A stretch of DNA of 64,000 nt from IMG/VR virus record IMGVR_UViG_3300035698_012408. One strand, written 5' to 3'. Shown here one piece after another: positions 671-53,085 of the stretch. This DNA comes from a virus. The notes under the pieces were generated by a model. The model searched no databases, had not been told where the DNA came from, and saw only the letters and a program-made list of their open reading frames with translations. The position numbers were made by a program, and so were the translations under genes. Positions within the stretch are counted from its first letter, which is position 1, and each line of letters opens with the position of its first letter.

Positions 671-684
671 GGTACTTAGAAACC
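671..684. promoter_or_regulatory. copy 1 of the 14-nt motif GGTTTCTAAGTACC (read on the minus strand)
   Basis: Exact 14-mer, 2 nt upstream of the SD of the 93..656 gene and downstream of a sigma70-like candidate promoter. Confidence 0.6.
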
Positions 685-7065: not shown

Positions 7066-8064
7066 TTATTCTCCCACGTCGTCGCCATGAGGGACATCCT
7101 CATGGGTTTCGACGGCGGGTTCTTCCTTGGTGACTGGCGGATGCTCAATCACTTCTTCAATTCCAGCCGTGGTCAGCCCGACCTCGCCCTCCTCTGCTTC
7201 CTCCGCGTCGGCGGCATATTGCTTGGCCGGCGATTCGGTCATCTCTGGCAGCTTAACCACGATCGGTTCCGGCGTGGGTAGGACTGCCTGCGGCGGCTCC
7301 GGGGCTTCCCCGGTCTCGATCCACTCCTGGAGCTTCTTGAGGGCCGCTCCATAGAGCAACTCTTCCTGCGGCGCCAGTTGCAGCTCGATGCGTCGCAACG
7401 ACTTATTGTCATCGGCTGGGTTATTCTTCCACTCCTCACCGGGGGCGACACGCTCACGTTCGGGCTCGTCGTCATCTCGATTGAGATCCTGCACGATGAC
7501 GTACTGCTTGAGATTGATGAACTGTGTCATCACCCACTGCGACAATTGCACCTCGCGAGGCACAGGTCGGAGCTGCGACGGCTGCATGTGATTGCCCACC
7601 GCCGAGGCGTCACCGTGAGCCATGTTCCTGATGGCCTCCACGATGTGTGGCGGCATCTGGCCGCCGGTCATTCCGATCGGTTGTCCGTCCGGGCCGAGCT
7701 GGTACATCTGGAACGCACCTTCCGGCGGTCCATCCGGCCCTGTCGGCATCGACGGCATCGACGGCTGAAACGCGGGTGGCTCCGGGACCGCTTCCAGCTG
7801 CCCGCTACCTGCCCGCTTAATCAATTGAACACTCAGCTGCGGCTGCAAATGATCAACCTCCAGCATAAGCGGCTTGTCCAGCGCTTCCCCCATATCGATC
7901 ACGACACGTTGATAACCCTCTTCGGTCGGCTCTTCGTGAATTTCCAGAACTTCCCCGCCCGTCCGGGACGTGCCCTGGAGTTGGGAGAAAATGTCGGGAT
8001 GCTGCCGTGAAATTGCCATGAGTGTTGCACCGGTCAGTGCAACGGTATCACCTACTCGAAACAT
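7066..8064 (-). CDS. hypothetical protein with a Pro-rich middle and an acidic C-terminus
   Basis: ATG after AGGAG. No family recognised. Confidence 0.45.
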   Translation of the reverse strand: MFRVGDTVALTGATLMAISRQHPDIFSQLQGTSRTGGEVLEIHEEPTEEGYQRVVIDMGEALDKPLMLEVDHLQPQLSVQLIKRAGSGQLEAVPEPPAFQPSMPSMPTGPDGPPEGAFQMYQLGPDGQPIGMTGGQMPPHIVEAIRNMAHGDASAVGNHMQPSQLRPVPREVQLSQWVMTQFINLKQYVIVQDLNRDDDEPERERVAPGEEWKNNPADDNKSLRRIELQLAPQEELLYGAALKKLQEWIETGEAPEPPQAVLPTPEPIVVKLPEMTESPAKQYAADAEEAEEGEVGLTTAGIEEVIEHPPVTKEEPAVETHEDVPHGDDVGE

Positions 8065-8073
8065 GCTGCTCTC

Positions 8074-9924
8074 CTATCGAAGCCCTAAGACAGATCCTGC
8101 TACGCCTCGCATGAATCCACCCCAGATGCCAAGGTCTTGAAGTTTCGTCTGGCCGGCTGGCGTAAGCCCGCCCAATGCCCCAAGCACTCCACCAGCTATC
8201 CGCGCGGTGGCGAGATCCAGGCCGGCGTTAGCCAGCCCGGAGATAAAGTGCGTGGGTCGTAATATTGGAGCTCCACCATACATCTGCTGGACTCCAGTAA
8301 CAAGCCCTGACGCCGCAGCCGCAATGTACGGCGGCGTGTTGGGCGTCCCCATGCCGTACGGGTTCGCAGTTGAACTCTGCCGCCCGTTATGCACATCATT
8401 CCAAATCGCTCGATTGAACGAGTCTACCGGTACCTGTTTCAACGACACCCCTGCCGACCCACCATAGCCGGAGTAGGCCACCTTGCAAAATCCTTCAGCT
8501 GCTCGCATGAACAGCTCAGACGGCTGAGGCAACGCTGCCTTCGTCGCCTGCCAATCGCTCCCTTTGTAGAAATTATCCCGAAGCGTCAACTCATTCGGCG
8601 ACATCGGGACTTTCGCGTGTGGCGTCATCATCGTACCCATGAAACCCATCGGCTTCCCAGCCTCTCGGGCCATCCCAGCGTTTGCAAACGCTGGCGGGAC
8701 GCTGGACAACGCACCCATCCCTCCACCTAACATGGCCAACGTCCGACGAAGTCTGTTACGCCGAACGTACTTCTCGGGCAGCAGGTGCTCCAGCAGCGTT
8801 CCGCCGAGGTACCCTCCGCCCGCCCCGAGCAAGCCACCGACTATCGAATTGGTCAATGGCGAAGGCCCGCCTGTGGCGGCCCCAGCCCACTCATACGGCT
8901 TGTTCAAGATGCTCAATGCACCAGCCGCCGATTTGATCAACACCCAGTCATCCTGCCCGTGTGGGCCGTACTCCGACTCGGTTCTGACGCTATCCACGCC
9001 ACTGATGGCCTTCAACGCGTTAGCCCACTTCTGATGGACGTTGTCGCTGTCGCCATCCGACAAGATAGCCCAGAGCTGCTTTGTCTCGGGATTCCACCAC
9101 ACGTCACCATAACCGGGGTCAGATGATGCGGGCAGATACCTGATGACCTTCTTGACCGTCTTCTGGACCGTGGCCGCCTCTTTGTAGCGAGTAGCCACGA
9201 GCGCCGGGACAGCCATCCAGGCCTCCAGTTCTCCCTGCTTTTCGATACGTTGGATGGTCTCGTCTTGCACTTTCGACCATGCCTTCCTGGCGTCTACGCC
9301 GCGATCGTCAATGTAAATATCGGCAATCAGCTTATCGCTGGTGCCATCCGGCTGATCCGGGTTCTCGTTCACATAGTCCCACGGAATGTCGTGTTCGTCA
9401 AGATAGGTCTTCGTGAGTTCGTCATCTCCCCGCACCGTGTTAATGATAACACGCCAGCCGCGACCTTTGAACTCATCCAGAGCTTTTTTAGCCCCTGGAC
9501 GTGGCTTAGGGATGTCTTCGGGATCAAACTTATCATACATCTCTGCAATGGTCCCGTCCAGATCTACTGCCACGGTCGGGACCTTTTCACCGGCTTCTGC
9601 CTGCTTTATTGTATCATCCAGGCCAGCACTTCCATCCCATAGGCCGCGGAAGGCCGCCTGCCCAGCAATCCGCTGCGGAAGTCCTCCATCTGTAGATCGT
9701 AGGCCCGCCAGTGCTTTGCTACTGCTCTGCGTTGTTGCTGTGCGACCCACAACGCTCGACGCCTTTCTGCGCCCCGCGTTGCCTGCCGTTCTCGCTTCTG
9801 CCGTTTTTGCTGGCGTCGCGAGCAGCGTTCCGATTTGCCTTTGGACTTTCCCCGTTTGGTGACCCGTTCCTTTGGCTCGTCGCATCTCATGCGTCGTCTG
9901 TCTCCTATGTGTTGTGGCCATCAT
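8074..9924 (-). CDS. HAD-superfamily phosphatase domain (NT5C/deoxyribonucleotidase-like) fused to a large Gly-rich membrane-associated C-terminal region
   Basis: HAD motif I VAVDLDGTI, motif II IINTVR, motif IV IYIDDRG. The C-terminus has glycine-zipper-like helices (GGLLGAGGGYLGG, GGVLGALGG). Start ATG 9924 after GGGAG. Confidence 0.55.
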   Translation of the reverse strand: MMATTHRRQTTHEMRRAKGTGHQTGKVQRQIGTLLATPAKTAEARTAGNAGRRKASSVVGRTATTQSSSKALAGLRSTDGGLPQRIAGQAAFRGLWDGSAGLDDTIKQAEAGEKVPTVAVDLDGTIAEMYDKFDPEDIPKPRPGAKKALDEFKGRGWRVIINTVRGDDELTKTYLDEHDIPWDYVNENPDQPDGTSDKLIADIYIDDRGVDARKAWSKVQDETIQRIEKQGELEAWMAVPALVATRYKEAATVQKTVKKVIRYLPASSDPGYGDVWWNPETKQLWAILSDGDSDNVHQKWANALKAISGVDSVRTESEYGPHGQDDWVLIKSAAGALSILNKPYEWAGAATGGPSPLTNSIVGGLLGAGGGYLGGTLLEHLLPEKYVRRNRLRRTLAMLGGGMGALSSVPPAFANAGMAREAGKPMGFMGTMMTPHAKVPMSPNELTLRDNFYKGSDWQATKAALPQPSELFMRAAEGFCKVAYSGYGGSAGVSLKQVPVDSFNRAIWNDVHNGRQSSTANPYGMGTPNTPPYIAAAASGLVTGVQQMYGGAPILRPTHFISGLANAGLDLATARIAGGVLGALGGLTPAGQTKLQDLGIWGGFMRGVAGSVLGLR

Positions 9925-9943
9925 AAATCTCCCGTCCCTGGAG

Positions 9944-10672
9944 TTATTCGTCGAAATAGCACTCAAGGTCGGTGCCGGTAAACTCTTGCTTCAGTTCCGT
10001 GTAATTCTCAATCTGCGATGATAAGGATCTAATCCCTACCTTCACTGTATTGGTTGTAGGCGCCGGGCACAATGCCGGATCTACATCAAGATGCTCGTAG
10101 ATGCGACGCATATACCGCAGCGGGGCTGCACACAGCGACTCGTACGTCAAAACGAAAGAATCCGTATAAGCTAGGCCCGTGGTGGACTGGAGCTGACGAA
10201 TGGCGTCAATATCCTGACGCAACGCAGCAGAGTCCACAACCAGCCGCTGATTCCGAATACGCTCAGCTTTACGCCGCCACCCCGCCTGATGCCGTCGAAT
10301 CTGCCATTTCCTGTGATGATCACCCAATTGATGAGACACGAACCGCCGCAGCAGGTTCCACCGCTGAAGCACGATAACCTTCGTGTCTTGAGGTAACAGC
10401 TTAAACAGATCATTGTACTCACGTGGGTTAGTCCAATGAGGCTGCACCCCTTGCCAGCCGTGAAACATGTGCGCGACCGCCCCGGAGCCCTGTGTCGCCA
10501 ACGTCCGCTGAATGCGGGCACTCGTACTCATTCGCGGTCGACCCGCTTTCGCTCCAGGATTAAACACCTCGCCATCACACGCCAAGTCGGGATGAGAGTT
10601 GATCAAGCCGCGGAGCATGTGCGTGCCGCACCGTGGAAAGGTCAAGACTAAAAATCCCTTTGGTTTTGCCAT
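9944..10672 (-). CDS. sulfotransferase-family protein (paralog 1 of 4)
   Basis: 5'-PSB-like FPRCGTHMLRGLINSHP and 3'-PB-like RWNLLRRFVSHQL. C-terminus YFDE. Confidence 0.6.
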   Translation of the reverse strand: MAKPKGFLVLTFPRCGTHMLRGLINSHPDLACDGEVFNPGAKAGRPRMSTSARIQRTLATQGSGAVAHMFHGWQGVQPHWTNPREYNDLFKLLPQDTKVIVLQRWNLLRRFVSHQLGDHHRKWQIRRHQAGWRRKAERIRNQRLVVDSAALRQDIDAIRQLQSTTGLAYTDSFVLTYESLCAAPLRYMRRIYEHLDVDPALCPAPTTNTVKVGIRSLSSQIENYTELKQEFTGTDLECYFDE

Positions 10673-10688
10673 CTATTCAGTTCTCCGA

Positions 10689-11417
10689 CTATTCATTGAA
10701 ATAACACGCGATGTCAGTGTCTGCAAAACGCCTTTTCAATGACTCGTAATTGATTATCATGTCACGTAACGACCTACCCATATGCAGCGGTAGCGTCTCG
10801 GCTTCAATATTCTCGCAAGCATCCGGGTCCGCCCCGAGGTGCTCGTAAATGCGACGCATGTGAAACTCGGTGTGTAGACACAGCTGCTCATACGACACCC
10901 TGTAAGTATTTAGAAACTGGCAACCCCGCGTGGCTAGTATCACCCGAGCGGTGTGTATATCGCCTCGCAACCGCGCGGGGTCTAGCATCACACGTGCATC
11001 TCTTGCTTGCGTTACTAGAACCTGTGCATCACGCTTACTTCGCGTGACGTTCCATACGCTCTTCCTCGCCAACCGCCCCGACGCATACCGTCGCAATAGA
11101 TTCCACCGCTGAATGCACACGACTTTCGTGTCCAATGGTACTTGCTTGAACAAGTCGGCAAACCTAGTTCGTCGCCCTTTCGGCCAGCCGGTACAAGCAT
11201 GAGCTATCATACCAGTAAGCGGCCCCTGCCAATATTCATTTAGGCGAGCCTGCACGCCCCCTGATTCCTTGAACCTGCTAGGATCAAATACCTCATCATG
11301 ACACGTAATGGCTGGGTGTGCATTGAGCAGCGACCGTAAAAAATGACTGCCACTTCTCGGATACGAGAGTAACAGAAATCCTTGCTTACCTTCAGGGAAC
11401 ACCAAACGATCACTCAT
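10689..11417 (-). CDS. sulfotransferase-family protein (paralog 2 of 4)
   Basis: YPRSGSHFLRSLLNAHP and RWNLLRRYASGRL. The start ATG 11417 overlaps the upstream stop as ATGAGTGA. Confidence 0.6.
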   Translation of the reverse strand: MSDRLVFPEGKQGFLLLSYPRSGSHFLRSLLNAHPAITCHDEVFDPSRFKESGGVQARLNEYWQGPLTGMIAHACTGWPKGRRTRFADLFKQVPLDTKVVCIQRWNLLRRYASGRLARKSVWNVTRSKRDAQVLVTQARDARVMLDPARLRGDIHTARVILATRGCQFLNTYRVSYEQLCLHTEFHMRRIYEHLGADPDACENIEAETLPLHMGRSLRDMIINYESLKRRFADTDIACYFNE

Positions 11418-12159
11418 CAAAATAACACGCAAGGTCAGTGCCCGCAAAATGCTTCTTCACCTTTCCATAATTGGTCACTATCTCCCGGATCGGCCGATCC
11501 GCGTTAAGCACCATCGTCTTGGCCTTCACGTGCTTGCACGCATCCGGGTCAGCCCCGAGGTGCTCGTAAATCCGCCGAATATGTTCTTCAGTATTAGCTC
11601 GCAGCTGCTCGTACGTTACCAGATGAGTATTCACGAATTGCAGCCCGAGCGTGGCCAATATTGCTCTGGTGACATCTACATCCAGTCGCAACTTCACCAC
11701 GTCCACACGGATTGTCTGGGTTCTCGCAGCCTCCGCACGGGCTTCAGCGTTGTCCGAACCAGTCATCACCGTCCACTCGTTACTCGCCTGCGCCAGTAAA
11801 TGCGATACGTGCCGTCGAAACAGGTTCCACCGCTGGATGCACACGATCTTCGTGTCCAGCGGCAGCGTCGGGAATAATCCGGCGAAACCACTCTTTGCCC
11901 GCCACACGCAGTCACGCTCCCCACGCCAACCAATATACGCGTGGGCAATCATGCCCGTGAGCGGCCCTTTCCAATACTGGATCAGTCGCTGCTCTACATG
12001 CCCCGGTTCCGGGTAAAGTTCACGGTTAAATATCTCGCCGTGACACTTGATGTCCGGGTGCTCGTTGAGAAGCGATCGCAGGAAATGACTACCACTTCTC
12101 GGATACGAAAGTAGCAGAAATCCTTGCTTGTCTTTGGGAAATGCTAACCGATTACTCAT
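11410..12159 (-). CDS. sulfotransferase-family protein (paralog 3 of 4)
   Basis: YPRSGSHFLRSLLNEHP and RWNLFRRHVSHLL. The start overlaps the upstream stop as ATGAGTAA. Confidence 0.6.
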   Translation of the reverse strand: MSNRLAFPKDKQGFLLLSYPRSGSHFLRSLLNEHPDIKCHGEIFNRELYPEPGHVEQRLIQYWKGPLTGMIAHAYIGWRGERDCVWRAKSGFAGLFPTLPLDTKIVCIQRWNLFRRHVSHLLAQASNEWTVMTGSDNAEARAEAARTQTIRVDVVKLRLDVDVTRAILATLGLQFVNTHLVTYEQLRANTEEHIRRIYEHLGADPDACKHVKAKTMVLNADRPIREIVTNYGKVKKHFAGTDLACYFDE

Positions 12160-12901
12160 CGAAATATGGCTCCATGTCTGTACCCATGCACTGGGCTTTC
12201 AGCTCTTCGTAATTTGTTACCTGTTGACTAATCGGCACCCGGGCAAACCGCACTGACGTGGTCGTAGGATTTAACTGCTTACCAGGATCTACGCCAAGGA
12301 ACTTGTAAATATCCCACATGACCCGCTTGGGCGTGCTGCAAAGCTGCTCATAGGTAATGTGTATAGCATTTTGAAACCGTAGCCCGATCGTGGACTGTGC
12401 GGCTCTGGCCATGTCCACGCTGGTACGCAGAGCACCAAGCGGAATATTTACCGTAGTCCTGTCGTACTCATCCCGCCGAAACTTCCCTGGTGCGTTAGTC
12501 CTTGCCTCCCACGCCCTGCACTTCAATGCCATGCGGTCAGACACGTAGCGTCGCAACAGATTCCAGCGATGCAGCACCACGCAAACCTGCTCAGGCCTAA
12601 AGCTAACCAGCGGCTCGGCCTTCAACATATCGGCCACGCCCGTCTCTATCCACGCCGTCTTGTCAAGCGTGTACTGGCACGTCATGTGATGCGTGTAACC
12701 AACGTGCTTCCCAGCACTGTAATGCTCCAAGACGTTCGCCACCGTGTGAGGCTGTTTCACCTTTTTTGTGTAATGCGACAGCACATTGAACAGCTCGCCG
12801 TGACAGTGCAAGTCTGGATGCGAGTTAATGTAATCGCACATCAGATGCGTCCCAGAACGTGGGAGCGACAACAGCACAAATCCTCGTTTAGACCCTGCCA
12901 T
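12152..12901 (-). CDS. sulfotransferase-family protein (paralog 4 of 4, most divergent)
   Basis: LPRSGTHLMCDYINSHP and RWNLLRRYVSDRM. ATG 12901 overlaps the GT stop (TAATG). Confidence 0.55.
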   Translation of the reverse strand: MAGSKRGFVLLSLPRSGTHLMCDYINSHPDLHCHGELFNVLSHYTKKVKQPHTVANVLEHYSAGKHVGYTHHMTCQYTLDKTAWIETGVADMLKAEPLVSFRPEQVCVVLHRWNLLRRYVSDRMALKCRAWEARTNAPGKFRRDEYDRTTVNIPLGALRTSVDMARAAQSTIGLRFQNAIHITYEQLCSTPKRVMWDIYKFLGVDPGKQLNPTTTSVRFARVPISQQVTNYEELKAQCMGTDMEPYFDE

Positions 12902-13833
12902 TACAAATACTTCTCCAATAACTGCGCCCACTTCTTATGGAACGTCGCCAACCCGAATCGTTCACGTGCGATTTCGACATTTGGCGGTGAGCCTGCCAAT
13001 GCCTTCTTAACAAATCCTGCCAATACGTTCGCGGAAACTACTGCTCCGCGTTTCGGTGGAATCCTTGTCACCATGTCAGCGAACTCTTTGCAGCTGGCAC
13101 GTGCGGAAACCACCACCCGCTTACCCATGCACGCAGCTTCGAGCACACAGTATGGGAATGCTTCATTATGTGACGGCACGCACAACACATCAGTTGCACG
13201 ATAGACGTCGCCCGGCGTATCAGTGTACCCTTGCAACGTCGTCCACCGATTATTCAACCGCCGGGAGCCTGCGACACCCTGACCAGACAGCAGTGCCGGC
13301 TCCTGCAACTTCCGGGCAGCCTTGGCCACCGCAACGGCATTCTTCAGCCCCGAGTTTCTACCAACAAACCCCAACAGGAACTGCTCCCCGTACTTCTCGC
13401 GTAGGTCCTCGCCGACGCGGTCCAACCGCTCACAATCAACACCGTTCGTGATCGTCAACGGCTCTCGGCCGAGAGTCTTCCTCATGTTCCCCGCTACGGG
13501 TGACGAAACAGCGACCAACACGTCGGCGGCCTTCATAGCATCCACCCAGCCAGCGTGCCACTTGTTACGGTGATGCCGCACGCAGATCTGCACGCCGCCA
13601 ACCCGTTTGGTCACGCCGCCACTGGAATCGATGATCACCTTCGCGTCAGTGATAACACCTTGCTGCCACTCCAGCCCTGCCGCTGTAAGCCGCGCAAGTG
13701 CCGCGGGTAGAATCATCGGACCCTGAACACGGACACGCATACCGATAGACTGCAAGTAAGGGGCTAGGCTTAACACCCATGTGAGTCCCCCGCCGCAGTC
13801 CAATTTCTTGAATGCAAATGCTATATCGATCAC
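12901..13833 (-). CDS. GT-B glycosyltransferase (GT4/GT1-like), paralog 1
   Basis: C-terminal motif HNEAFPYCVLEAACMGKRVVVS (E-x7-E type). The N-terminus is homologous to the next gene. GTG 13833 overlaps the upstream TGA (GTGA). Confidence 0.6.
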   Translation of the reverse strand: MIDIAFAFKKLDCGGGLTWVLSLAPYLQSIGMRVRVQGPMILPAALARLTAAGLEWQQGVITDAKVIIDSSGGVTKRVGGVQICVRHHRNKWHAGWVDAMKAADVLVAVSSPVAGNMRKTLGREPLTITNGVDCERLDRVGEDLREKYGEQFLLGFVGRNSGLKNAVAVAKAARKLQEPALLSGQGVAGSRRLNNRWTTLQGYTDTPGDVYRATDVLCVPSHNEAFPYCVLEAACMGKRVVVSARASCKEFADMVTRIPPKRGAVVSANVLAGFVKKALAGSPPNVEIARERFGLATFHKKWAQLLEKYL

Positions 13834-14768
13834 AGATACTTCTCCAATAACTGCATCCACTTTTTGTAGAATAATGGCAGCCCGAAACGCTCTCGGGCTA
13901 CCGCAACGTCGGGAGGCGGGCCTGCCAATGCCTTCTTCACATGTGCTACTATTGCCTCTGCCGTCGGAGTAGTCCTGGCATGCTGCACTTCGATTCGCGT
14001 AACCATATCAGCGTACTCTTCGCAATGTGCGCGAGCTGATACCACCACACGTTTACCGAGACACAGAGCTTCTACCACCGAGAATGGGAAGGCTTCGTGC
14101 TTGGATGGCACGCACATGACGTCAGCGGCTCGATAGACATCGCCTATCGTGGTCGTGTAACCAATCAACTGCGTGTAGTCGTTCTTCAGTCGACTATCCC
14201 CAGCAATGTTACCGCCCGCAAAGATAGCATGGCGATTGAATAGCTTGGCCGCCTTGGCTATCTGTGCTGCGTTCTTCAACTGAGAGTTACGACCGACGAA
14301 CCCCATCAGAAACTCACGACCGAACTTTTTACGCAGGTCCACACCAACCTTGTCCAGACGGTCAATGTCCACGCCGTTGTTGATGACCACGGGCATTCGC
14401 CCAGTGTATCGACGGGTGTTATGAGCCACCGGGATAGACACGGCGACGATTTCATCCGCTTTCTTCGTAGCCTTCACCCAACCACTCAGCCACGTCCGCC
14501 GGCTATGCCGCACGGCGATGACAGGGCCATCATGCTCCCGTGCTACCTTGCAGCCACTGGAGTCGATCACGATGCGGGTATCCTTGATGACACCGATCTC
14601 GAACGGGATGCCCGCTGCTGTCAACGTGGCTATCGCCGTTGGAAACAGCTTCGGTCCCTGGACACGGACGGTCACGCCCTGTGACTGAAGATAAGAGGCG
14701 AGCGAGATTACCCAGGTAAGCCCACCGCCATTATTTAATCCGCGGAACGCGAACGTGATGTCGGTCAT
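13830..14768 (-). CDS. GT-B glycosyltransferase (GT4/GT1-like), paralog 2
   Basis: KHEAFPFSVVEALCLGKRVVVS. It ends LLEKYL like its paralog and has an ATGA overlap with the upstream gene. Confidence 0.6.
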   Translation of the reverse strand: MTDITFAFRGLNNGGGLTWVISLASYLQSQGVTVRVQGPKLFPTAIATLTAAGIPFEIGVIKDTRIVIDSSGCKVAREHDGPVIAVRHSRRTWLSGWVKATKKADEIVAVSIPVAHNTRRYTGRMPVVINNGVDIDRLDKVGVDLRKKFGREFLMGFVGRNSQLKNAAQIAKAAKLFNRHAIFAGGNIAGDSRLKNDYTQLIGYTTTIGDVYRAADVMCVPSKHEAFPFSVVEALCLGKRVVVSARAHCEEYADMVTRIEVQHARTTPTAEAIVAHVKKALAGPPPDVAVARERFGLPLFYKKWMQLLEKYL

Positions 14769-15319
14769 GCCTTCTCCAGATAGAAGATCGTTTCCTTCCG
14801 ATACGTATCCTCGTGGTGGATATGCCCTTTGAGCATCTCACGCAGATCCGCTTCGCATAACCGAATGTTTGGAATGATGTGGCCTTCCCAGTTATCGTCC
14901 CTGACGTTCGTGTCCGTCTCGGCCATTCGCAAGAACAACACCAACGTCATCCGTTTCGTGTAGGACTTGAGAGCGTTTTCGAGAATCTTCCGCCAGTTGA
15001 CGTTATGTTCCAACACGTGACGCATGTTGAGGCAGGGCACGCGGGAGGTGTAGACTTCGAGATCCTTCAGGTAATCACAGAATCCCGCAGTGCCATCAAC
15101 GCCGATATATTCCGGCCGATCGGCTGGGGGCACCATGTTGTGCAGCACCTTCTCGAAGTCGCGGCAACCGCAGCCCCAGTCTTCAATCATGCCGTTGCCT
15201 TCCAGCCACGCGACAGATCGCCGATAGGAAGTTTTGCGTCCGTAGTCCCGCCGATGCGCTCCGTCTTTATAACACGGCGACCACTTACCGGCTCCACTTT
15301 CTTCTCTTGACTTCCCCAC
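14765..15319 (-). CDS. class I SAM-dependent methyltransferase
   Basis: Motif I IEDWGCGCRDF, motif II YIGVDG, then MRHVLEHN. GTG start 7 nt after AAGGAG. Confidence 0.55.
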   Translation of the reverse strand: MGKSREESGAGKWSPCYKDGAHRRDYGRKTSYRRSVAWLEGNGMIEDWGCGCRDFEKVLHNMVPPADRPEYIGVDGTAGFCDYLKDLEVYTSRVPCLNMRHVLEHNVNWRKILENALKSYTKRMTLVLFLRMAETDTNVRDDNWEGHIIPNIRLCEADLREMLKGHIHHEDTYRKETIFYLEKA

Positions 15320-15329: not shown

Positions 15330-16760
15330 TTAAATAATTCGACTTAGTAATTGTGCCACAGGCGATGCCTGCTTTACGAGAAATCCATCCGTGCCAGCCC
15401 CGACACGTGTCCCACCACTCCGCCCATTGTCTCCTGGGACATGAAGCCCATCCTGCCCGGCGGTTCCCGATCTGGAGCTCGCCCCACCACTTGGTCGTGA
15501 TCCTCCCGGAAACTCCGTGGTGCCAGCTCTCTTGGTGGTGGCATTAGGCCCTGCGGCAGGTCCTGCACCTCGTCCATGATCGGCGTGTTCGAGGTCACTC
15601 CGCGAATCCGATCGGCTGCACGTGACAGACCATGTGGCTGTCTTGGTTCGGGCAACGGCTCCAGCATTGCTGGCCGCGTGTGCAACTGCGGCGGTTCGTG
15701 AGACCGTGGCGGCTCCTGCTGGTACAGCGAATGGAACGACTGGAACGCGTGCTCCTGCGGCTCCACCGGCAGATCCCGACTTAGTTGCTCCACCTGCCGC
15801 CCGTCCTCCGTCATTATCCAAGACACTCCGATGAACCTCGGGTCGCTGTACATGTGCTTCCGTTGCGGTCGCGAGACGATCCACAGCGGACCCCCGGGCG
15901 GAGGTGGCGGGGTCCACAGTTGCGGCAGCGACAACACCCGGGACGGCGGCTCCACCAGCTTTGCTAGTGGCGGAGGTAACGGCTTCTCCGGTGGCAGCTT
16001 GATCAGACCCAAATCCCCCGACTTTATAACGCGGATCACGATATGATCGCCAGTCTCGGATCGCATCGAGGACTTGATTTCCTGTCTGAGCCTTCGACGC
16101 ATCCCCCGACTGGCTATCGGCTGCGTAACTGGTTGATTCACTTGCGTTTGTGTCATAGAAACTGCTCCCGCTCTTCCCAAAAACTGGTATGTTTTCGTGA
16201 ATTGGATCGGTACTTAGAAACCGTCCAGGGTTATGAATCAGGCTGCCCTTTTTGACATTGCCAGCCTGAAGGACTCGCTTCTTGCGAATCGCGAAGGTGC
16301 TATGGAACTTGAACTCGCCGTTCTTCGGCAGGCCGCTCAGTCCATAACTTTTACGTAGCTTCTCCAGCTCGGGGCTGTGGATTTCGATCATCCAACACTT
16401 GGAGACGTCATCCCAGCCGTGAGGTGATACTGCCCGCACTGGGCCCAACGTGTAACCGAAGGACTTACCACGTTCTGTTATCTTATCACCTCCACCGATT
16501 TCGTCAATCTCTTCTTTCCGCATTACCGAGACATGAGCCCTATAATTCCCAGAATCTTGCTTGGGTACCTCGGTCCCTGGCTCATTCAACGCTTGGAACG
16601 CACCATGCCCTAAGGCGTTCGGTACGTCCATCAGGAGCCACCCGGAGGCAGATAGGTAGAGTTTGCCCTGGAGCGAGTACGAAAGCTCAGGGGCAGCCGC
16701 AGCCATCTTGCGACCGCCCCGAGCTTCGCAACCTTGGCGGGTTGTATCAGTCATTGACAT
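15330..16760 (-). CDS. 2H phosphoesterase (LigT/cyclic phosphodiesterase/Acb1-like fold) N-terminal domain; 3' extent doubtful
   Basis: Two H-x-[ST]-x motifs (AHVSV and FHSTF) lie about 80 aa apart. The second sits in the LigT-like context ELEKLRKSYGL....FKFHSTFAI. There is no in-frame stop until 15330, but everything after about 16230 overlaps another plausible gene. Confidence 0.5.
   Translation of the reverse strand: MSMTDTTRQGCEARGGRKMAAAAPELSYSLQGKLYLSASGWLLMDVPNALGHGAFQALNEPGTEVPKQDSGNYRAHVSVMRKEEIDEIGGGDKITERGKSFGYTLGPVRAVSPHGWDDVSKCWMIEIHSPELEKLRKSYGLSGLPKNGEFKFHSTFAIRKKRVLQAGNVKKGSLIHNPGRFLSTDPIHENIPVFGKSGSSFYDTNASESTSYAADSQSGDASKAQTGNQVLDAIRDWRSYRDPRYKVGGFGSDQAATGEAVTSATSKAGGAAVPGVVAAATVDPATSARGSAVDRLATATEAHVQRPEVHRSVLDNDGGRAAGGATKSGSAGGAAGARVPVVPFAVPAGAATVSRTAAVAHAASNAGAVARTKTATWSVTCSRSDSRSDLEHADHGRGAGPAAGPNATTKRAGTTEFPGGSRPSGGASSRSGTAGQDGLHVPGDNGRSGGTRVGAGTDGFLVKQASPVAQLLSRII
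15374..16156 (-). CDS. hypothetical Pro-rich protein (alternative frame inside the 15330..16865 ORF)
   Basis: ATG 16156 lies 52 nt downstream of an exact 14-mer copy. Its composition is more protein-like than the Ala/Gly/Ser-rich tail of the overlapping frame. Its stop leaves a normal 54-nt leader before the next gene. Confidence 0.4.
   Translation of the reverse strand: MTQTQVNQPVTQPIASRGMRRRLRQEIKSSMRSETGDHIVIRVIKSGDLGLIKLPPEKPLPPPLAKLVEPPSRVLSLPQLWTPPPPPGGPLWIVSRPQRKHMYSDPRFIGVSWIMTEDGRQVEQLSRDLPVEPQEHAFQSFHSLYQQEPPRSHEPPQLHTRPAMLEPLPEPRQPHGLSRAADRIRGVTSNTPIMDEVQDLPQGLMPPPRELAPRSFREDHDQVVGRAPDREPPGRMGFMSQETMGGVVGHVSGLARMDFS
16209..16222. promoter_or_regulatory. copy 2 of the 14-nt motif
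   Basis: Exact GGTTTCTAAGTACC on the minus strand. Confidence 0.6.
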
Positions 16761-16765
16761 ACCTG

Positions 16766-17461
16766 TTATTCTTTGGATGGTGTGATTGTCGTGCGATCCA
16801 ACAACTGGGAATTGATTACATCCTGGGCCCCACGACTCTCCGCACCCCTTATGATCTGTGGCCACCGGCGATCCTGTTGCATCTGTATCGCCTCCACTTG
16901 TGTTTGCAGCCTACCGATCGACACCCACATTTCTCGACGATCAAGCTGACACTCATCCGTGATCCTATGGAGCTTCTCGACCTCGAAATGTGCATCCATC
17001 AACTGCACCTCTTCCCGTCCCAGCCGATCGATAACATCAGGATGCGCTGGCAGCGCCTCGTGCTCGCTGAGCATCTGACGCGTCTCGCCCACATCCACGC
17101 TTATCGGGGACATCGTCATGTTCACAAAGGCCACGAAGACCCCGCCAAGGGCCAATGAAGCCACGATGGCTGACATAACCAGCGGCCAGCTCACCTGACC
17201 ATGCTGCGATACTTCGTGTTGCTGTTCGTCGATTCGCCGGTGGATCTCAGCTGACCGTCCGGTCGCGCGTAAATCCGACTCCTGCATCATCCGCCGCGTC
17301 TCTTCAAACCCGGCTGTTACGGTGCGGTTTGTCTGCTCGACCATTTGCAACGTATGCTGCATGTCGCGCTCCAACCCGGTGACCCGACCTTCCAAATGTG
17401 CGTGTGCCTGGCCTGTAGCAACAGCGGCCTTCGCAGTCCCTGCTTCTTGTGTTCCAGCCAT
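16766..17461 (-). CDS. single-pass membrane protein with coiled-coil segments
   Basis: TM helix WPLVMSAIVASLALGGVFVAFV flanked by heptad-like regions. The start is uncertain (ATG 17461 or 17530; the track start at 17653 is GTG). Confidence 0.45.
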   Translation of the reverse strand: MAGTQEAGTAKAAVATGQAHAHLEGRVTGLERDMQHTLQMVEQTNRTVTAGFEETRRMMQESDLRATGRSAEIHRRIDEQQHEVSQHGQVSWPLVMSAIVASLALGGVFVAFVNMTMSPISVDVGETRQMLSEHEALPAHPDVIDRLGREEVQLMDAHFEVEKLHRITDECQLDRREMWVSIGRLQTQVEAIQMQQDRRWPQIIRGAESRGAQDVINSQLLDRTTITPSKE

Positions 17462-23943: not shown

Positions 23944-24951
23944 CTAACTTGCCCACCCCTGCACGTCGAGACGTGCTCGCACCGCAGGGATATATTTATA
24001 ACAAGCGTCTATGATGCACTTTGCAAAGTATTCGACATTGAGCCAATGCTTATCCATCGCCTTCAGGTACTCGTGGGCCGCCATAATGCGATCTCGCTGC
24101 AATAATTCCGGTGCTTCCTTGATGTCATCATAGAACAACGGGTAGCCCGTGCCAAGGTATTCTTCCAGTGCCGGCTTCCGATTTAGCAGGATTGGTGCTT
24201 CCCTCGCGATGCACTCAACCACCGTGTTCGTGGCCGTCACGCCCAGGTAATGGGCAAAGATCACGCTCGACGCTACCAGCTCATTGTACTCGGCATTCGG
24301 TATCCAGCCGTGCTCCTGCACCCGTGGAGGCCGTGGGCAGTCCCGATTGTGCTCCAAGCAGTGATGATGGGCGTTCCGCTGCCACGGGTACTGATGCTCC
24401 AGCAGACGATGCTTCTCGTAGCCGGGCGGCACCCGCATCGTGTAGATCTGCGACGTGTCGCGCAGGTACCAGCCGGTCTGCACTAGCCGCCGCTTCAGCT
24501 TGTCAGGGTCCCACTTCGGGACATCCAACCGCGTCGGATGCCTGATGGGCACGACTGGACACAGCCCCCACTTCTCCAGATGTGGTATCTGCGACTCGCT
24601 CATGGCGATGAGGAAGCTGCACTTCTCTCTCGCCGCGAACCAGCGATCCTGAATGGCCCCGGTGCATTTCGACCAATGCCCGAGCGGGTTGCACCACTGG
24701 TACCGTAGCGGGCGATCGGCCGGCAGATGGCAGACCCCGAACCACGTGTCGCACTGCGAACTATTCTGGAATATGCTCCAGTCAACCGGCAGCCCCAGCG
24801 TACGCTCCACTGCATCATCAAAGATCACCGTGCTGTCGACGTCGAACAGCGGTGCCAGATGCTTCTGAATCCAGGGCCACCCATCACAGTGGTCCCAATC
24901 CTTATGATGCGGATGATCCGGGACCTTCCGAAATATCTTCTCGACCGTCAT
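23944..24951 (-). CDS. putative glycosyltransferase (GT-B-like C-terminal half)
   Basis: The C-terminal TATNTVVECIAREAPILLNRKPALEEYLGTGYPLFY resembles a GT-B nucleotide-sugar-binding region. The assignment is weak. Confidence 0.3.
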   Translation of the reverse strand: MTVEKIFRKVPDHPHHKDWDHCDGWPWIQKHLAPLFDVDSTVIFDDAVERTLGLPVDWSIFQNSSQCDTWFGVCHLPADRPLRYQWCNPLGHWSKCTGAIQDRWFAAREKCSFLIAMSESQIPHLEKWGLCPVVPIRHPTRLDVPKWDPDKLKRRLVQTGWYLRDTSQIYTMRVPPGYEKHRLLEHQYPWQRNAHHHCLEHNRDCPRPPRVQEHGWIPNAEYNELVASSVIFAHYLGVTATNTVVECIAREAPILLNRKPALEEYLGTGYPLFYDDIKEAPELLQRDRIMAAHEYLKAMDKHWLNVEYFAKCIIDACYKYIPAVRARLDVQGWAS

Positions 24952-32250: not shown

Positions 32251-32264
32251 GGTTTCTAAGTACC
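32251..32264. promoter_or_regulatory. copy 3 of the 14-nt motif (opposite orientation)
   Basis: Exact GGTTTCTAAGTACC on the plus strand, 4 nt downstream of the -10 of a candidate minus-strand promoter. Confidence 0.6.
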
Positions 32265-39237: not shown

Positions 39238-39251
39238 GGTTTCTAAGTACC
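39238..39251. promoter_or_regulatory. copy 4 of the 14-nt motif
   Basis: Exact GGTTTCTAAGTACC on the plus strand, between a structured terminator-like element and the SD of 38929..39225. Confidence 0.6.
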
Positions 39252-42008: not shown

Positions 42009-42109
42009 CCTAGTACCTTTCATCGTGAACTGGTATGATCGCTGCCTGCTTGTTATCATTAGTGTAGCCTGATGACCGTCACTATTGCAACCCCGTAAGG
42101 AAGAGATTC

Positions 42110-43573: not shown

Positions 43574-43587
43574 GGTACTTAGAAACC
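43574..43587. promoter_or_regulatory. copy 5 of the 14-nt motif
   Basis: Exact copy, 10 nt after the plus-strand stop, overlapping the 5' arm of the terminator hairpin by 4 nt. Confidence 0.6.
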
Positions 43588-50291: not shown

Positions 50292-51455
50292 TTATACACC
50301 AAGGAAGTCTGCGACGCTATCCCGGGTCTCCCCGGCTTTCACCGCAAGCTCCTGAAGACGTTCCAACGGCATCGGCAAGTTCCCCACCATTGCGAGAATC
50401 TTGATGCCGTCGCCCCCGCTGGCCGGGTAGACGCCTGGGAACACTGCGGAATCGGCCGGAGTAAGGATACGATTCATCATCTCGGTGCCGTGGTCCAGCA
50501 CGCCAACCGTGATAGGCTCCGGCCCGGACCAAGCTGCGCCACTCACGACGTAGATGAGCCCGGCGACGTTGCCCTGGGTGAGATCGATCGTAGCCAACAC
50601 ATTCCGGCGAAGCTGATCACGGATGGGCGTACTGACGTCGCTCGGCTCCGCCCACTTCGTGATATTGCAAGCTGCAAAGGCCACAATTCCACTGTCCATG
50701 ATCTTGCTGAAATCGGCCGGATCGAATGTCGTACCACCCACATCCTCGCTCTCCGTGCCGGCGAGCCGGTTGAAGGTATGGAGGATCTGAGCCGTACTCT
50801 GGTTAGATGCCGGTTTCTCTTGTGGTACTGGCACCTTGGCACCATAGAGCGTTTTGAACTTCTCGTTGTCGATGAAGATCACAGGGCTCACCTTGAGCTT
50901 GTTCAGCACCTTCGCCGAGTGGAGAATGTTCTTTGCGCTACGCTGGCCTTCGGAGTCCTTTGGCATGGCCATGATGACACCAACACGCGGAGGTCGCTTC
51001 TTCTCCTGCATGTAGCGCTTGGCTACCTGGACCACCTTAGCGAACGCCCCGGCACCCGTACCGCCCGCCCCAGAGAGGCAGACAAACACGTAATCCGGGT
51101 CCTCGCCCCAGCAGCGCTGGAAGAGATCATAGAGATCCTCGTCCTTATCCGCTACCAGTCGAGCCGCCGTGTGCGGATCTTTACCTGCACCCCGCGCCTG
51201 CCCCACATCGAGCTTGGCGGTGTCCGGGAACGTCTTCAGCTCGGCCAAGTCGGCAATCGCCGTGTTGACCGCACAGACTCGGGTGTACCCGATTTCCTGA
51301 AACGTCTTGGCTATCCGCCCGCCAGCTTGTCCGACACCCACAAACGCGAATTTGTAAGCTACCGGATGATCAAACTTGTCGGCGATAGTCATCCCCGTAG
51401 GGCTCTCAGGAACCTCTGGTAGGTCCCCAATGTTGAGATGGATGTCATCACTCAT
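50292..51455 (-). CDS. tubulin/FtsZ-superfamily GTPase, TubZ/PhuZ-like
   Basis: T1 loop FVGVGQAGGRIA. T4 loop SGAGGTGAG matches the tubulin signature [SAG]GGTG[SA]G. AVNTA, GAGKDP and VIFIDNE are collinear with the TubZ segments AVNFA, GAARTP and VIVNDN. Confidence 0.75.
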   Translation of the reverse strand: MSDDIHLNIGDLPEVPESPTGMTIADKFDHPVAYKFAFVGVGQAGGRIAKTFQEIGYTRVCAVNTAIADLAELKTFPDTAKLDVGQARGAGKDPHTAARLVADKDEDLYDLFQRCWGEDPDYVFVCLSGAGGTGAGAFAKVVQVAKRYMQEKKRPPRVGVIMAMPKDSEGQRSAKNILHSAKVLNKLKVSPVIFIDNEKFKTLYGAKVPVPQEKPASNQSTAQILHTFNRLAGTESEDVGGTTFDPADFSKIMDSGIVAFAACNITKWAEPSDVSTPIRDQLRRNVLATIDLTQGNVAGLIYVVSGAAWSGPEPITVGVLDHGTEMMNRILTPADSAVFPGVYPASGGDGIKILAMVGNLPMPLERLQELAVKAGETRDSVADFLGV

Positions 51456-52032: not shown

Positions 52033-53085
52033 TTAAGCAAATATCCGTCGAATATTAGACCCAAAGGTCTCACGACGGAGGTGAAGGCCCTTCGACACGC
52101 TTTGCTGCAACGAATACAGCCGCTCCGTGTCTAAGGCGTCATTCCGAAATACATCATCCATGAGAGCATAATCAGGAGCAGCACAAGGCAACCCTATATT
52201 ATTCTTCTCTTCGGACGTGTCAACCAGAATCCCGTGAACACCGTTCACAAACATCTCGGACATCGGCTGACAGTTAAATGTCACAACAGGTGTCCCCATT
52301 GTCACCGATAACAGCCCTACCATACAAGTGCTTTCCCAGTGTGTTGGCCAGAAAGTTACATCATGCTGACGGAAGAGCAGCGGCCGGGACGCTGGATGCA
52401 CCCCCTTATATAATGAAAGTCGACCCGGGAATTGCTTCTTCAATTGCTTCAGTAAGCGCTTCCCAGGCGACGCAATTGTTGACGAATTATAAACCACGCT
52501 GAGCGAGGCTTTCGGACATCCCTCTAAGGCTCGTCCGGCCACTTCCAGGGCTGTCAATTCTACACGCCTCGCCACGCCGTCGTATATCGGCATGAGTATC
52601 TTTGGTGCGGTCGGCTGGTAGTCCTGCGGCTTCTTGCAGATTGGCAAACCCACGTCCCAAGGAACCACAACCACGTTATCCAGTTTCCATTGATAGCCGA
52701 GAAACTGTGCCGCCGCCATCGTTGGCGCGATCACCATGTCAGCTGCCTGTAAGGCTGCCCGGTCAGCTACCCGCGACTCCATGCTCAGCTCATGCCACAG
52801 CACAAAAATACATGTGCGACGCTGCTGTTTCTTCGCATACTTGACTTGCTGCGGGTGCGGGATACTCGTCCACAAGACGATGTCGCACTGTTGCAGCCAC
52901 TTCGTAAATTTAAGGTCACGGCTTCGCCGAACCTGTGCATCCCACTTGTTCGACACGCGACGCGGTGTGTCAGTCATTGTTAATATCGACACGTCATGCC
53001 CATGTGCGACAGCCGAATCCGCAATGCGTAATCCTGCATAAGTCGCTTCATGAAAACAGTAACGGGTACAGATGCCTAGATTCAC
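52033..53085 (-). CDS. GT-B glycosyltransferase (GT1/GT4-like)
   Basis: ESTCMVGLLSVTMGTPVVTFNCQPMSEMFVNGVHGILVD matches the E..lEA.a.G.PVv....E.v..g..G pattern. GTG start. Confidence 0.55.
   Translation of the reverse strand: MNLGICTRYCFHEATYAGLRIADSAVAHGHDVSILTMTDTPRRVSNKWDAQVRRSRDLKFTKWLQQCDIVLWTSIPHPQQVKYAKKQQRRTCIFVLWHELSMESRVADRAALQAADMVIAPTMAAAQFLGYQWKLDNVVVVPWDVGLPICKKPQDYQPTAPKILMPIYDGVARRVELTALEVAGRALEGCPKASLSVVYNSSTIASPGKRLLKQLKKQFPGRLSLYKGVHPASRPLLFRQHDVTFWPTHWESTCMVGLLSVTMGTPVVTFNCQPMSEMFVNGVHGILVDTSEEKNNIGLPCAAPDYALMDDVFRNDALDTERLYSLQQSVSKGLHLRRETFGSNIRRIFA

What the first reader, a model, noticed from the sequence alone, without database searches (positions are those of the whole stretch)
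15330..16865. 2H phosphoesterase (LigT/Acb1-like) whose ORF lacks a stop and reads about 800 nt through a second plausible gene
Residues encoded between about 16650 and 16290 carry the two H-x-[ST]-x motifs (AHVSV, FHSTF) at LigT-like spacing and in LigT-like context. Phage 2H enzymes include Acb1, which degrades cyclic-oligonucleotide immune signals, and RNA-repair ligases or phosphodiesterases.

Downstream of the domain the frame stays open to 15330, but it becomes Ala/Gly/Ser-rich low complexity. An exact copy of the 14-mer (16209-16222) lies in this region.

Another frame (15374..16156) starts with ATG 52 nt after the motif. It has a more ordinary composition, and its stop leaves a normal leader before the next gene.

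An A5 run (minus strand, 16251..16247, GTC AAA AAG) lies just before the motif. A 1-nt change there would terminate the 2H gene within 2 to 5 codons, upstream of the motif.

So this is one of three things: an assembly indel, a programmed frameshift site, or a genuine long dual-coding overlap.
Basis: partly seen in the sequence, partly recalled or inferred. Interest (0 to 1): 0.65.

Follow-up and report, generated by a model that had tools for sequence, protein, structure and literature searches.

The report
Stop-less 2H phosphoesterase overlapping another gene
A large salt-lake phage carries a real 2H-family phosphoesterase gene that has no stop codon where its relatives end and reads about 300 more codons through a neighbouring gene in another frame; the sequence is correct, so this is a true gene overlap, possibly maintained by selection, and not an assembly error.

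Summary
The minus-strand ORF 16865..15330 encodes a 2H phosphoesterase of Pfam family 2H-SAK (PF22547), probably starting at ATG 16760 or 16754. Both H-x-S/T motifs are present and the AlphaFold core is confident.

Here the frame runs 305 more codons. The true A5 coordinates are 16253..16249.

Assembly error is refuted: contigs from eight runs and five public assemblies are identical, with no indel. No canonical frameshift signal is present.

The second frame (ATG 16156..15374) has genome-typical codon usage, a GGGAG ribosome-binding site, and an upstream 14-mer that is otherwise strictly intergenic.

The 2H frame nevertheless has 0 stops across that gene, against about 5 expected (P about 0.003). 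It ends in KQASPVAQLLSRII*, which resembles the C-terminal "LL" helix of tail-bearing relatives (post-hoc P about 0.01-0.03).

Best reading (about 0.45): a genuine dual-coding overlap. Main rival (about 0.3): accidental stop loss with a functionless tail. No relatives or RNA data exist to decide. Public gene calls keep one gene and drop the other.

The parts
16248..16760 (-). Catalytic part of the 2H-SAK phosphoesterase gene. It runs from ATG 16760 (or ATG 16754) to the family-conserved Lys codon AAG at 16250-16248.
   Evidence: Pfam PF22547, E=3.1e-8. There are 51 homologs at 44-61% identity, and alignment A2 loses similarity right after this Lys. The AF2 model has pLDDT above 93 for residues 31-160. 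Codon usage is coding in this frame.
16524..16538 (-). First catalytic motif, AHVSV (H-x-S).
   Evidence: Coordinates. The His and Ser are invariant in A2.
16293..16307 (-). Second catalytic motif, FHSTF (H-x-T).
   Evidence: Coordinates. The His is invariant and the Thr nearly invariant in A2.
16246..16253 (-). The A5G3 run (AAAAAGGG) at the point where family similarity ends. A5 is 16253-16249.
   Evidence: It is identical in 8 runs and 5 assemblies. It lies in the loop of a predicted hairpin, CAGGCUG/CAGCCUG.
16231..16240 (-). Stops in the two other frames just after the domain: TGA 16240-16238 (the frame of the second gene) and TAA 16233-16231.
   Evidence: Read directly. They would end the 2H protein 3-6 codons after the Lys if the ribosome or the DNA shifted by one base.
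16209..16222 (-). The 14-mer GGTTTCTAAGTACC, read as G-R-F-L-S-T in the 2H frame.
   Evidence: There are 5 exact and 1 near copy, against 0.11 expected, and the flanks are unrelated. The other five copies all lie in spacers between genes. Four of them are 12-45 nt upstream of a minus-strand start.
16165..16169 (-). Shine-Dalgarno-like GGGAG, 8 nt before ATG 16156.
   Evidence: Most genes of the window show GGAG/GGGAG at this spacing.
15374..16156 (-). Second gene (260 aa, Pro/Arg/Gln-rich, orphan), lying entirely inside the long ORF in another frame.
   Evidence: Its stop-free codon score is 0.172, against 0.151 +/- 0.052 for real genes. Its second-position composition is typical. JGI and Logan called it as a gene. 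No true homologs were found. The single-sequence AF2 model has pLDDT 41, which is uninformative.
15375..16247 (-). Ala/Gly/Ser/Thr-rich extension of the 2H frame (291 codons), predicted to be disordered.
   Evidence: It has 0 stops. About 5.1 are expected across the second gene, P(0)=0.002-0.004. There are no homologs except itself and no tandem repeats. Synonymous usage is off-frame-like.
15330..15374 (-). Last 14 codons of the long ORF, KQASPVAQLLSRII, plus TAA. Apart from the first base of the Lys codon they lie outside the second gene. They resemble the C-terminal LL helix of tail-bearing 2H-SAK proteins.
   Evidence: The best local match is the whole tail of P0046, KAASALAELLANV*. None of 265 other 20-mers of the tail score as well, and 1-3% of the other controls do. 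LL occurs within the last 9 residues in 12 of 27 tail-bearing homologs, against 7% of six-frame ORFs. A K-anchored PSSM test was negative.
14765..15319 (-). Next gene (184 aa, unknown function). Its AAGGAG ribosome-binding site overlaps the TAA of the long ORF.

Best explanation
The sequence is correct, and two genes truly overlap on the same strand.

The first gene encodes a 2H-SAK-family phosphoesterase. I infer that it is a metal-independent hydrolase of 2',3'-cyclic phosphate or related phosphodiester ends, used for RNA-end healing or for destroying a nucleotide signal.

It has no stop where its relatives stop. Translation from ATG 16760 or 16754 would give a protein of about 474 aa, made of three parts:
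- a folded 2H core of about 170 aa;
- a disordered Ala/Gly/Ser/Thr-rich linker of about 290 aa;
- a short C-terminal helix, KQASPVAQLLSRII, of the kind that ends many tail-bearing relatives.

The linker is encoded on the same DNA as an independently signalled orphan gene (ATG 16156 to TAA 15374) in another frame. That gene has its own ribosome-binding site and an upstream 14-mer.

What is shown:
- the domain and its family;
- the correctness of the sequence;
- the coding-type composition of the second frame;
- the absence of stops in the 2H frame beyond chance.

What is inferred:
- both frames are translated;
- selection keeps the 2H frame open so that the C-terminal helix stays attached;
- the substrate.
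For: Domain:
- PF22547 matches above its cutoff.
- There are 51 homologs with invariant catalytic residues.
- The AF2 core is confident and the tail disordered.
- The only credible fold matches are 2H enzymes.

Sequence:
- It is identical in contigs of 8 runs and in 5 assemblies.

Second frame is coding:
- Its codon score is typical of genes, as is its second-position composition.
- The four-fold sites of the 2H frame look like an off-frame.
- GGGAG sits 8 nt before the ATG.
- The 14-mer is otherwise strictly intergenic and usually lies just upstream of starts.

2H frame kept open:
- It has 0 stops against 5.1-5.2 expected, P=0.002-0.004.
- The shuffle null is calibrated, with observed/expected 1.01 over 27 genes.
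- T is in third position at 0 of 47 at-risk junctions, against 28 of 213 elsewhere.
- The longest open +2 run in 27 control genes is 144 codons, against 260 here.
- The 30-codon spacer is also open, P=0.18.

C-terminal end:
- It matches family tails.
- Relatives carry real C-terminal extensions of 40-140 aa.
Against: - Neither the second protein nor the tail has any relative. No conservation or synonymous-constraint test is therefore possible.
- No RNA runs are available.
- Apart from the missing stops, the 2H frame shows no extra signal. Its somewhat raised codon score is fully explained by the amino-acid sequence of the other frame (z=-0.97).
- The C-terminal similarity was noticed post hoc. 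It is short, and a K-anchored PSSM test failed.
- A genome of at least 215 kb is under no obvious pressure to overlap genes.
- This case was picked out because the ORF is long. That selection weakens the P value for the missing stops.
Confidence: 0.45

Rival explanations
1. Accidental stop loss. The ancestral 2H gene ended a few codons after the conserved Lys. For example, ...NVKKAA-TGA would result if one G of the GGG at 16248-16246 is a later insertion.

A 1-nt indel, or the insertion of the cassette made of the 14-mer, ribosome-binding site and orphan gene, removed the stop. The frame then happened to be open through the next gene. On this view the long tail is made but has no function, and only the 2H core and the separately translated second gene matter.
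For: - Twenty of 47 homologs stop within 5 residues of the Lys.
- Removing one base from the A5G3 run gives KAA or RAA followed by a stop, which fits the common K-A-A continuation.
- The 14-mer marks the stretch as spacer-like.
- No signal beyond the missing stops supports selection on the tail.
- The population is nearly clonal, with 2 SNPs in 18 kb, so a mildly harmful change could persist.
Against: - It needs a chance event of about 0.003 across the second gene, times 0.18 for the spacer.
- It does not explain why the long ORF ends in a family-like LL helix.
- The same sequence appears in runs listed under several years and samples.
Confidence: 0.3
2. Recoding. A share of ribosomes slips -1 on C_AAA_AAG and terminates at TAA 16233, giving ...VKKGQPDS. 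This would yield a family-sized 2H enzyme in the way dnaX yields gamma. The read-through form would be a by-product or a second isoform.
For: - A_AAG is a known shift-prone A-site sequence in bacteria (general knowledge).
- Stops follow within 3-6 codons in both other frames.
Against: - The heptamer is not X_XXY_YYZ.
- The A run sits in the loop of the predicted hairpin, and the next hairpin starts about 20 nt downstream, not 5-9 nt.
- No homolog needs recoding, because all have ordinary stops.
- Recoding does not explain the open frame.
- A5 is too short for transcriptional slippage.
Confidence: 0.07
3. Only the long ORF is a gene. The 260-aa second ORF is a chance open frame inside a GC-rich low-complexity linker.
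For: - Given the tail protein, the second frame is open in 7.5% of synonymous shuffles, and its codon score follows from the tail's sequence.
- The second protein is an orphan without a confident fold.
- ENA and one JGI annotation called only the long ORF.
Against: - The tail's own codon score (-0.044) is below every real-gene control, whose minimum is 0.052.
- Its four-fold sites are far from genome usage, with G3 at 0.20 against 0.38, and look like second positions of the other frame.
- A real low-complexity protein of the same genome keeps positive scores.
- A ribosome-binding site, an ATG and the intergenic-type 14-mer all sit in the right places.
Confidence: 0.07
4. Assembly or sequencing indel at the homopolymer run.
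For: None found. The only support is the a-priori suspicion attached to a homopolymer at the critical point.
Against: - Contigs of eight runs from eight samples cover 16218-16271 with no indel.
- Two further loci align without gaps, with 2 mismatches, both elsewhere.
- Three more assemblies encode the exact 474-aa product.
Confidence: 0.02

Closest known systems
Pfam PF22547, 2H-SAK (2H phosphoesterase domain named after 'Swiss Army Knife' RNA-repair proteins; Burroughs and Aravind 2016, cited in PMC7824862 and PMC9503650)
   Same: It passes the family's gathering score. It is 44-61% identical to 51 members. Both H-x-S/T motifs and 24 invariant columns are shared.
   Different: Members are mostly 166-232 aa. 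This one runs to 474 aa, with an orphan tail that overlaps another gene. No RNA ligase, kinase or HAD partner lies in the 64-kb window. As far as I could find, the family has no assayed member.
Acb1 (phage anti-CBASS 2H nuclease; PDB 7t26, 7t27)
   Same: It is a phage-encoded 2H-fold enzyme of similar size. It appears among the few credible fold hits.
   Different: Foldseek E is 0.05-0.8 and TM 0.3-0.45. There is no sequence similarity, and no PADLOC or NCBIfam hit. It is not a member.
LigT/ThpR 2',3'-cyclic phosphodiesterase and the viral 2',5'-phosphodiesterases (MHV ns2; PDB 4z5v)
   Same: There are two H-x-S/T motifs about 77 residues apart, and it belongs to the 2H superfamily.
   Different: There is no Pfam LigT-type hit at E<=1, and the fold match is weak (E 0.07).
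dnaX tau/gamma -1 frameshift at A_AAA_AAG
   Same: AAA AAG is followed by an early stop in the -1 frame, so a slip would give a shorter product.
   Different: The first base is C, not A. There is no upstream SD-like enhancer of note and no hairpin at the usual distance. No conservation can be shown.
Overprinted (dual-coding) same-strand gene pairs of viruses, such as phiX174 D/E and lambda Rz/Rz1
   Same: One gene lies wholly inside another in a different frame. The subordinate frame is rich in four-fold-degenerate small residues and predicted to be disordered.
   Different: The overlap is far longer (260 codons), and the genome of at least 215 kb has no evident need for compaction. Expression of both frames has not been shown.

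Membership tests
2H phosphoesterase superfamily | Two H-x-T/S motifs in the conserved context | tested here: met
   AHVSV at 16538-16524 and FHSTF at 16307-16293. The His residues are invariant across 23 aligned sequences.
2H phosphoesterase superfamily | 2H fold | tested here: inconclusive
   The AF2 core is confident. PDB matches to 2H enzymes are weak: ns2, Acb1 and the BCSR5 phosphodiesterase, at E 0.07-0.5. BFVD matches include 2'-5' RNA ligase and Acb1 entries at E 0.006-0.2. The better matches (E 8e-7 to 7e-4) are to uncharacterised viral proteins.
Pfam 2H-SAK (PF22547) | Score above the curated gathering threshold | tested here: met
   34.3 bits against 27, covering profile positions 13-122 of 124. 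All 51 homologs carry PF22547.
Pfam 2H-SAK (PF22547) | Association with RNA-repair partners (ligase, kinase, HAD phosphatase) | tested here: not met
   None was found among about 40 proteins of the window that were scanned. The homolog contexts seen are varied: epimerase, PAS, response regulator, NUDIX.
LigT/ThpR family | Match to LigT-type profiles | tested here: not met
   The only Pfam hit at E<=1 is 2H-SAK. There is no NCBIfam hit.
Acb1 anti-CBASS nucleases | Sequence or close structural similarity to Acb1 | tested here: not met
   No sequence hit to PDB chains. Foldseek E is 0.05-0.8 and TM 0.3-0.47.
Acb1 anti-CBASS nucleases | Cleavage of cyclic oligonucleotide signals | not testable with these tools
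   This needs an enzyme assay.
Programmed -1 ribosomal frameshift (dnaX type) | X_XXY_YYZ slippery heptamer | tested here: not met
   The sequence is C_AAA_AAG.
Programmed -1 ribosomal frameshift (dnaX type) | Stimulatory structure 5-9 nt downstream | tested here: not met
   The A run lies in a hairpin loop, and the next hairpin starts about 20 nt downstream.
Programmed -1 ribosomal frameshift (dnaX type) | Conservation of the site among relatives | not testable with these tools
   There are no relatives with this arrangement. All homologs have ordinary stops.
Dual-coding (overprinted) gene pair | Both frames open over the whole overlap, beyond chance | tested here: met
   The 2H frame has 0 stops against about 5 expected, P 0.002-0.004, with a calibrated null.
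Dual-coding (overprinted) gene pair | Coding signature in both frames | tested here: inconclusive
   The second frame is typical. The 2H frame is intermediate, but the other frame's protein sequence explains that.
Dual-coding (overprinted) gene pair | Reduced synonymous variation across relatives | not testable with these tools
   There are no diverged relatives. The population is nearly clonal.
Dual-coding (overprinted) gene pair | Both products expressed | not testable with these tools
   No RNA runs are listed, and no proteomics is available.

The most novel reading that the evidence does not exclude
A jumbo phage keeps a 260-codon same-strand dual-coding overlap. A 2H-SAK enzyme is tethered through a disordered linker of about 290 aa to a conserved C-terminal LL helix. 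The linker's DNA also encodes a separately regulated orphan protein in another frame. A minor -1 slip at A_AAG could additionally release a family-sized short isoform.
Probability: 0.45. Interest if true: 0.65.

Novelty: new variant of a known kind. Interest (0 to 1): 0.45.

Why it matters
If both frames are used, this would be one of the longest same-strand overlaps in a large dsDNA phage. Such a genome has no need to save space, which makes the case useful for studying how new genes arise by overprinting.

There is also a practical consequence. Gene callers can keep only one of two long overlapping ORFs. Two public records here lack the 2H enzyme, and three lack the orphan gene. Surveys of phage RNA-repair or counter-defence genes can therefore miss such enzymes.

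The recurrent C-terminal LL motif in tail-bearing 2H-SAK proteins is a testable lead on how this unassayed family is targeted or regulated.

Tried and rejected
- **Assembly error.** Rejected from 8 runs and 5 assemblies.
- **Comparative test of the overlap.** Not possible. The second protein and the tail match only themselves among 5.8 billion proteins. An exhaustive HMMER search gave only repeat-driven, low-complexity hits. IMG/VR holds no relative of the second gene or of either neighbour. I saw no synteny with homolog loci.
- **RNA evidence.** No runs are listed.
- **"Intermediate" codon score of the 2H frame as independent evidence.** Rejected. The whole-codon score is partly driven by stops, and synonymous shuffles reproduce the stop-free score.
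- **K-anchored PSSM for the C-terminal helix.** Negative.
- **Linker expansion by tandem repeats.** None found.
- **Other searches of this stretch.** The sigma-70 promoter and intrinsic-terminator scans found one match of each kind, no more than shuffles give. Rfam found nothing.
- **PADLOC, NCBIfam, PHROGs and PDB sequence searches.** Nothing for the 2H core, the tail (not scanned against PHROGs) or the second protein.
- **AF2 of the second protein without an alignment.** pLDDT 41, uninformative.
- **The paper defining the SAK family (PMC5062991).** It is not held in the library. I used secondary citations instead.
Full report
**Where the window comes from.** The stretch is held by salt-lake metagenome runs and lies on public contigs of up to 215,361 nt. 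Genes run almost entirely on the minus strand, and GC is about 57%. Recognisable proteins include:
- a tubulin/FtsZ-like protein;
- thymidylate kinase;
- a trypsin-like peptidase;
- a phosphoheptose-isomerase-like domain;
- many glycosyl- and sulfotransferases.

Most other proteins are orphans. There is no DNA match in 50,697 phage records. I read it as an undescribed jumbo-phage-like virus. Most genes have GGAG-type ribosome-binding sites, which suggests a bacterial host.

**The observation.** One correction is needed: the A5 run is at 16253..16249, not 16251..16247.

The long ORF (GTG 16865 to TAA 15332-15330) overlaps the upstream gene by about 100 nt. Its realistic start is ATG 16760, five nt after that gene's TAA, or ATG 16754, which ENA and one JGI annotation used to give 474 aa.

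**The enzyme.**
- Pfam gives one hit, PF22547 2H-SAK, above its curated threshold.
- A search of 5.8 billion proteins returned 51 homologs at 44-61% identity, all carrying PF22547. Most are 166-232 aa.
- In a 23-sequence alignment, both catalytic His residues, the Ser of motif 1 and 21 other columns are invariant.
- AlphaFold2 models residues 31-160 at pLDDT above 93. Everything after residue about 170 is modelled as disordered.
- Foldseek finds no strong PDB neighbour. The credible weak hits are all 2H enzymes: MHV ns2, Acb1, the Burkholderia phage BCSR5 phosphodiesterase and ASCC1.
- In BFVD the best matches are uncharacterised proteins of giant viruses and phages, followed by "2'-5' RNA ligase" and Acb1 entries.

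It is therefore a 2H-superfamily enzyme of the 2H-SAK family, not LigT or Acb1.

The literature places phage 2H enzymes in the clean-up of 2',3'-cyclic phosphate RNA ends. It uses the name "Swiss-army-knife" for RNA-end-processing proteins (PMC7824862; PMC9503650). No ligase or kinase partner lies in this window. One homolog is fused to NUDIX and another sits next to a NUDIX protein. The substrate remains an inference.

**Where relatives end.** Similarity stops at a nearly invariant Lys, which is the AAG of GTC AAA AAG. Of the 47 homologs that could be anchored on this Lys, 20 stop within 5 residues of it. The other 27 carry unrelated tails of 11 to about 140 residues, including a Zn-ribbon and a NUDIX domain. 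In the two long-tailed relatives whose loci were complete enough to judge, the tail does not overlap the next gene by more than 44 nt. C-terminal additions are thus tolerated in the family, but the arrangement here is unique.

**Not an assembly error.**
- JGI 3300025736 and Logan SRR5459189 contigs align to the window over 18.5 and 11.4 kb without gaps. They show two mismatches, at 16869 and 12261.
- Contigs from eight runs, each from a different sample, cover 16218-16271 with no indel.
- Three further assemblies encode the exact 474-aa product.
- Caveat: these are contigs, so rare read-level variants would not show.

**Which frames look coding.** I trained a codon model on 27 long genes of the window.

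| Frame over 16156-15374 | Stop-free score per codon | Control distribution (37 chunks) |
|---|---|---|
| Second gene's frame | 0.172 | real genes 0.151 +/- 0.052 |
| 2H frame | -0.044 | off-frames -0.168 +/- 0.050, maximum -0.066 |
| Third frame | -0.384 | off-frames -0.185 +/- 0.060 |

- The 2H frame is coding from about 16780 to about 16260. The other frame is coding from about 16070 to about 15470. The stretch 16250-16070 is ambiguous.
- Second positions of the second frame match the genome's second-position composition almost exactly. The same sites, read as third positions of the 2H frame, have G 0.20 against a genome third-position mean of 0.38.
- Within four-fold codon boxes, the 2H frame deviates from genome usage like an off-frame (G/n 0.49; genes 0.24 +/- 0.09). 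The second frame deviates mildly (0.37), being G-rich and T-poor.
- The second ORF also has GGGAG 8 nt before its ATG, as most genes here do.

The second gene is therefore very probably real.

The raised score of the 2H frame is not independent evidence. Synonymous shuffles that keep the second protein reproduce it (z = -0.97).

**Is the open 2H frame chance?**
- Across the 260 codons of the second gene, the 2H frame has 0 stops.
- Synonymous shuffles within the gene expect 5.1-5.2 stops and give zero in 0.2-0.28% of trials. Codon-order shuffles give zero in 0.36%. Resampling with genome codon usage gave zero in 0 of 5000.
- The null is calibrated. Over 27 control genes, observed/expected stops in that frame are 528/524.9.
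- T occupies the third position at 0 of 47 junctions where it would create a stop, against 28 of 213 elsewhere.
- The longest open run in that frame in any control gene is 144 codons.
- The 30-codon spacer before the second gene is also open (P about 0.18).
- In the reverse direction, given the tail protein, the second frame is open in 7.5% of shuffles.

The open frame is thus unlikely by chance, at roughly 5e-4 to 3e-3. This finding was selected because the ORF is long, however, so the figure overstates the evidence.

**The end of the long ORF.** Its last 14 codons, KQASPVAQLLSRII, lie after the second gene's stop, apart from the first base of the Lys codon.
- Many tail-bearing relatives end in a short helix with Leu-Leu. 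LL occurs within the last 9 residues in 12 of 27, against 7% of six-frame ORFs of this window and 5 of 48 of its genes (binomial P 1.4e-7).
- The best local match of the window's last 20 residues is the entire tail of P0046, from its conserved Lys to its last residue: KAASALAELLANV.
- None of 265 other 20-mers of the tail scores as well.
- Only 1.3% of shuffles, 1 of 48 real C-termini and 3.4% of random 20-mers score as well.
- A simpler K-anchored PSSM test was negative.
- The idea arose after looking at the data. I count it as modest support, a likelihood ratio of perhaps 6-20.

**The 14-mer.** GGTTTCTAAGTACC occurs five times exactly and once with one mismatch, against 0.11 expected. The flanks are unrelated.
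- The other five copies all lie in spacers between genes.
- Four of them lie 12-45 nt upstream of a minus-strand start, in either orientation.
- One lies in a convergent spacer.

It behaves like an operator-type site. Its presence 52 nt before ATG 16156 marks the second gene as a separately controlled unit. It is read without a stop in the 2H frame.

**Frameshifting.**
- A -1 slip on C_AAA_AAG would end the protein at TAA 16233, and a +1 slip would end it at TGA 16240.
- The heptamer is not canonical.
- The A run sits in the loop of a predicted hairpin, and the next hairpin is about 20 nt away.
- No homolog needs recoding.
- Rfam finds nothing.
- Low-level slippage on A_AAG cannot be excluded. 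Nothing indicates a programmed site.

**Synthesis.** The following points are settled:
- the 2H-SAK identity;
- the correctness of the sequence;
- the physical overlap;
- the coding character of the second frame.

Whether the 305-codon extension is maintained is not settled. My estimates are:

| Reading | Probability |
|---|---|
| Genuine dual coding with a tethered C-terminal helix | about 0.45 |
| Accidental stop loss with a functionless tail | about 0.30 |
| Recoding as the main mechanism | about 0.07 |
| Second ORF spurious | about 0.07 |
| Sequence error | about 0.02 |
| Something not considered | the rest |

A plausible route to dual coding is that the orphan frame arose inside a pre-existing, weakly constrained linker. 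Insertion of a ready-made cassette would have had to be open in the 2H frame by luck.

**Limits.** There are no diverged relatives, no RNA or peptide data and no raw reads. All statistics on the overlap are single-sequence and partly post hoc.

Noticed in passing
window 671-684(-), 16209-16222(-), 32251-32264(+), 39238-39251(+), 43574-43587(-), 56076-56089(-): GGTTTCTAAGTACC has five exact copies and one 1-mismatch copy, with unrelated flanks. Apart from the copy inside the long 2H ORF, every copy lies in a spacer between genes. Five of the six lie 12-52 nt upstream of a minus-strand start codon, in either orientation. The ends GGT...ACC are palindromic. It looks like a regulator-binding site or a cassette boundary.
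   Followed up: partly
window 15330-16865; loci L001, L002, L006-L008: Public annotations of the same sequence disagree. JGI 3300025736 and Logan SRR5459189 call only the 260-aa second gene and no 2H gene. ENA ERZ27315525, ENA ERZ27316532 and JGI 3300005935 call only the 474-aa long ORF.
   Followed up: yes
homologs P0004-P0052: In 12 of 27 tail-bearing 2H-SAK proteins, Leu-Leu falls within the last 9 residues, whatever the tail length (11 to 115 aa). This suggests a conserved C-terminal short motif in an otherwise variable tail.
   Followed up: partly
window 50292-51455 (-): A tubulin/FtsZ-family GTPase (Pfam Tubulin, E 3e-11), as found in PhuZ/TubZ-carrying jumbo phages. The source contig is at least 215 kb.
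   Followed up: no
window 7687-14768 (-), also 23944-24951, 52033-53085, 63138-63920: There is an unusually dense set of glycosyltransferase and sulfotransferase genes: four sulfotransferase-like genes in a row, two GT4 genes, and a 630-aa protein with a phosphoheptose-isomerase-like domain. This suggests virus-encoded glycan synthesis or modification.
   Followed up: no
window 39348-42059 (-): A 903-aa protein with long Ala/Gly/Pro/Ser-rich low-complexity stretches and repeated GQAGNIV..AKAPS units. It still has normal codon usage in its own frame, so I used it as a control.
   Followed up: partly
window 16869 and 12261: These are the only two differences between the window and the JGI/Logan contigs over 18.5 kb. 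At 16869 the minus strand has G where they have A (CGC to CAC, Arg to His in the upstream gene). One other run also shows it. The population is nearly clonal across samples.
   Followed up: partly
window 16238-16276 (-): A predicted hairpin, CAGGCUG/CAGCCUG, encloses the A5 run in its loop. The 151-nt stretch folds better than all 200 shuffles (z -3.5). Its meaning is unknown.
   Followed up: no
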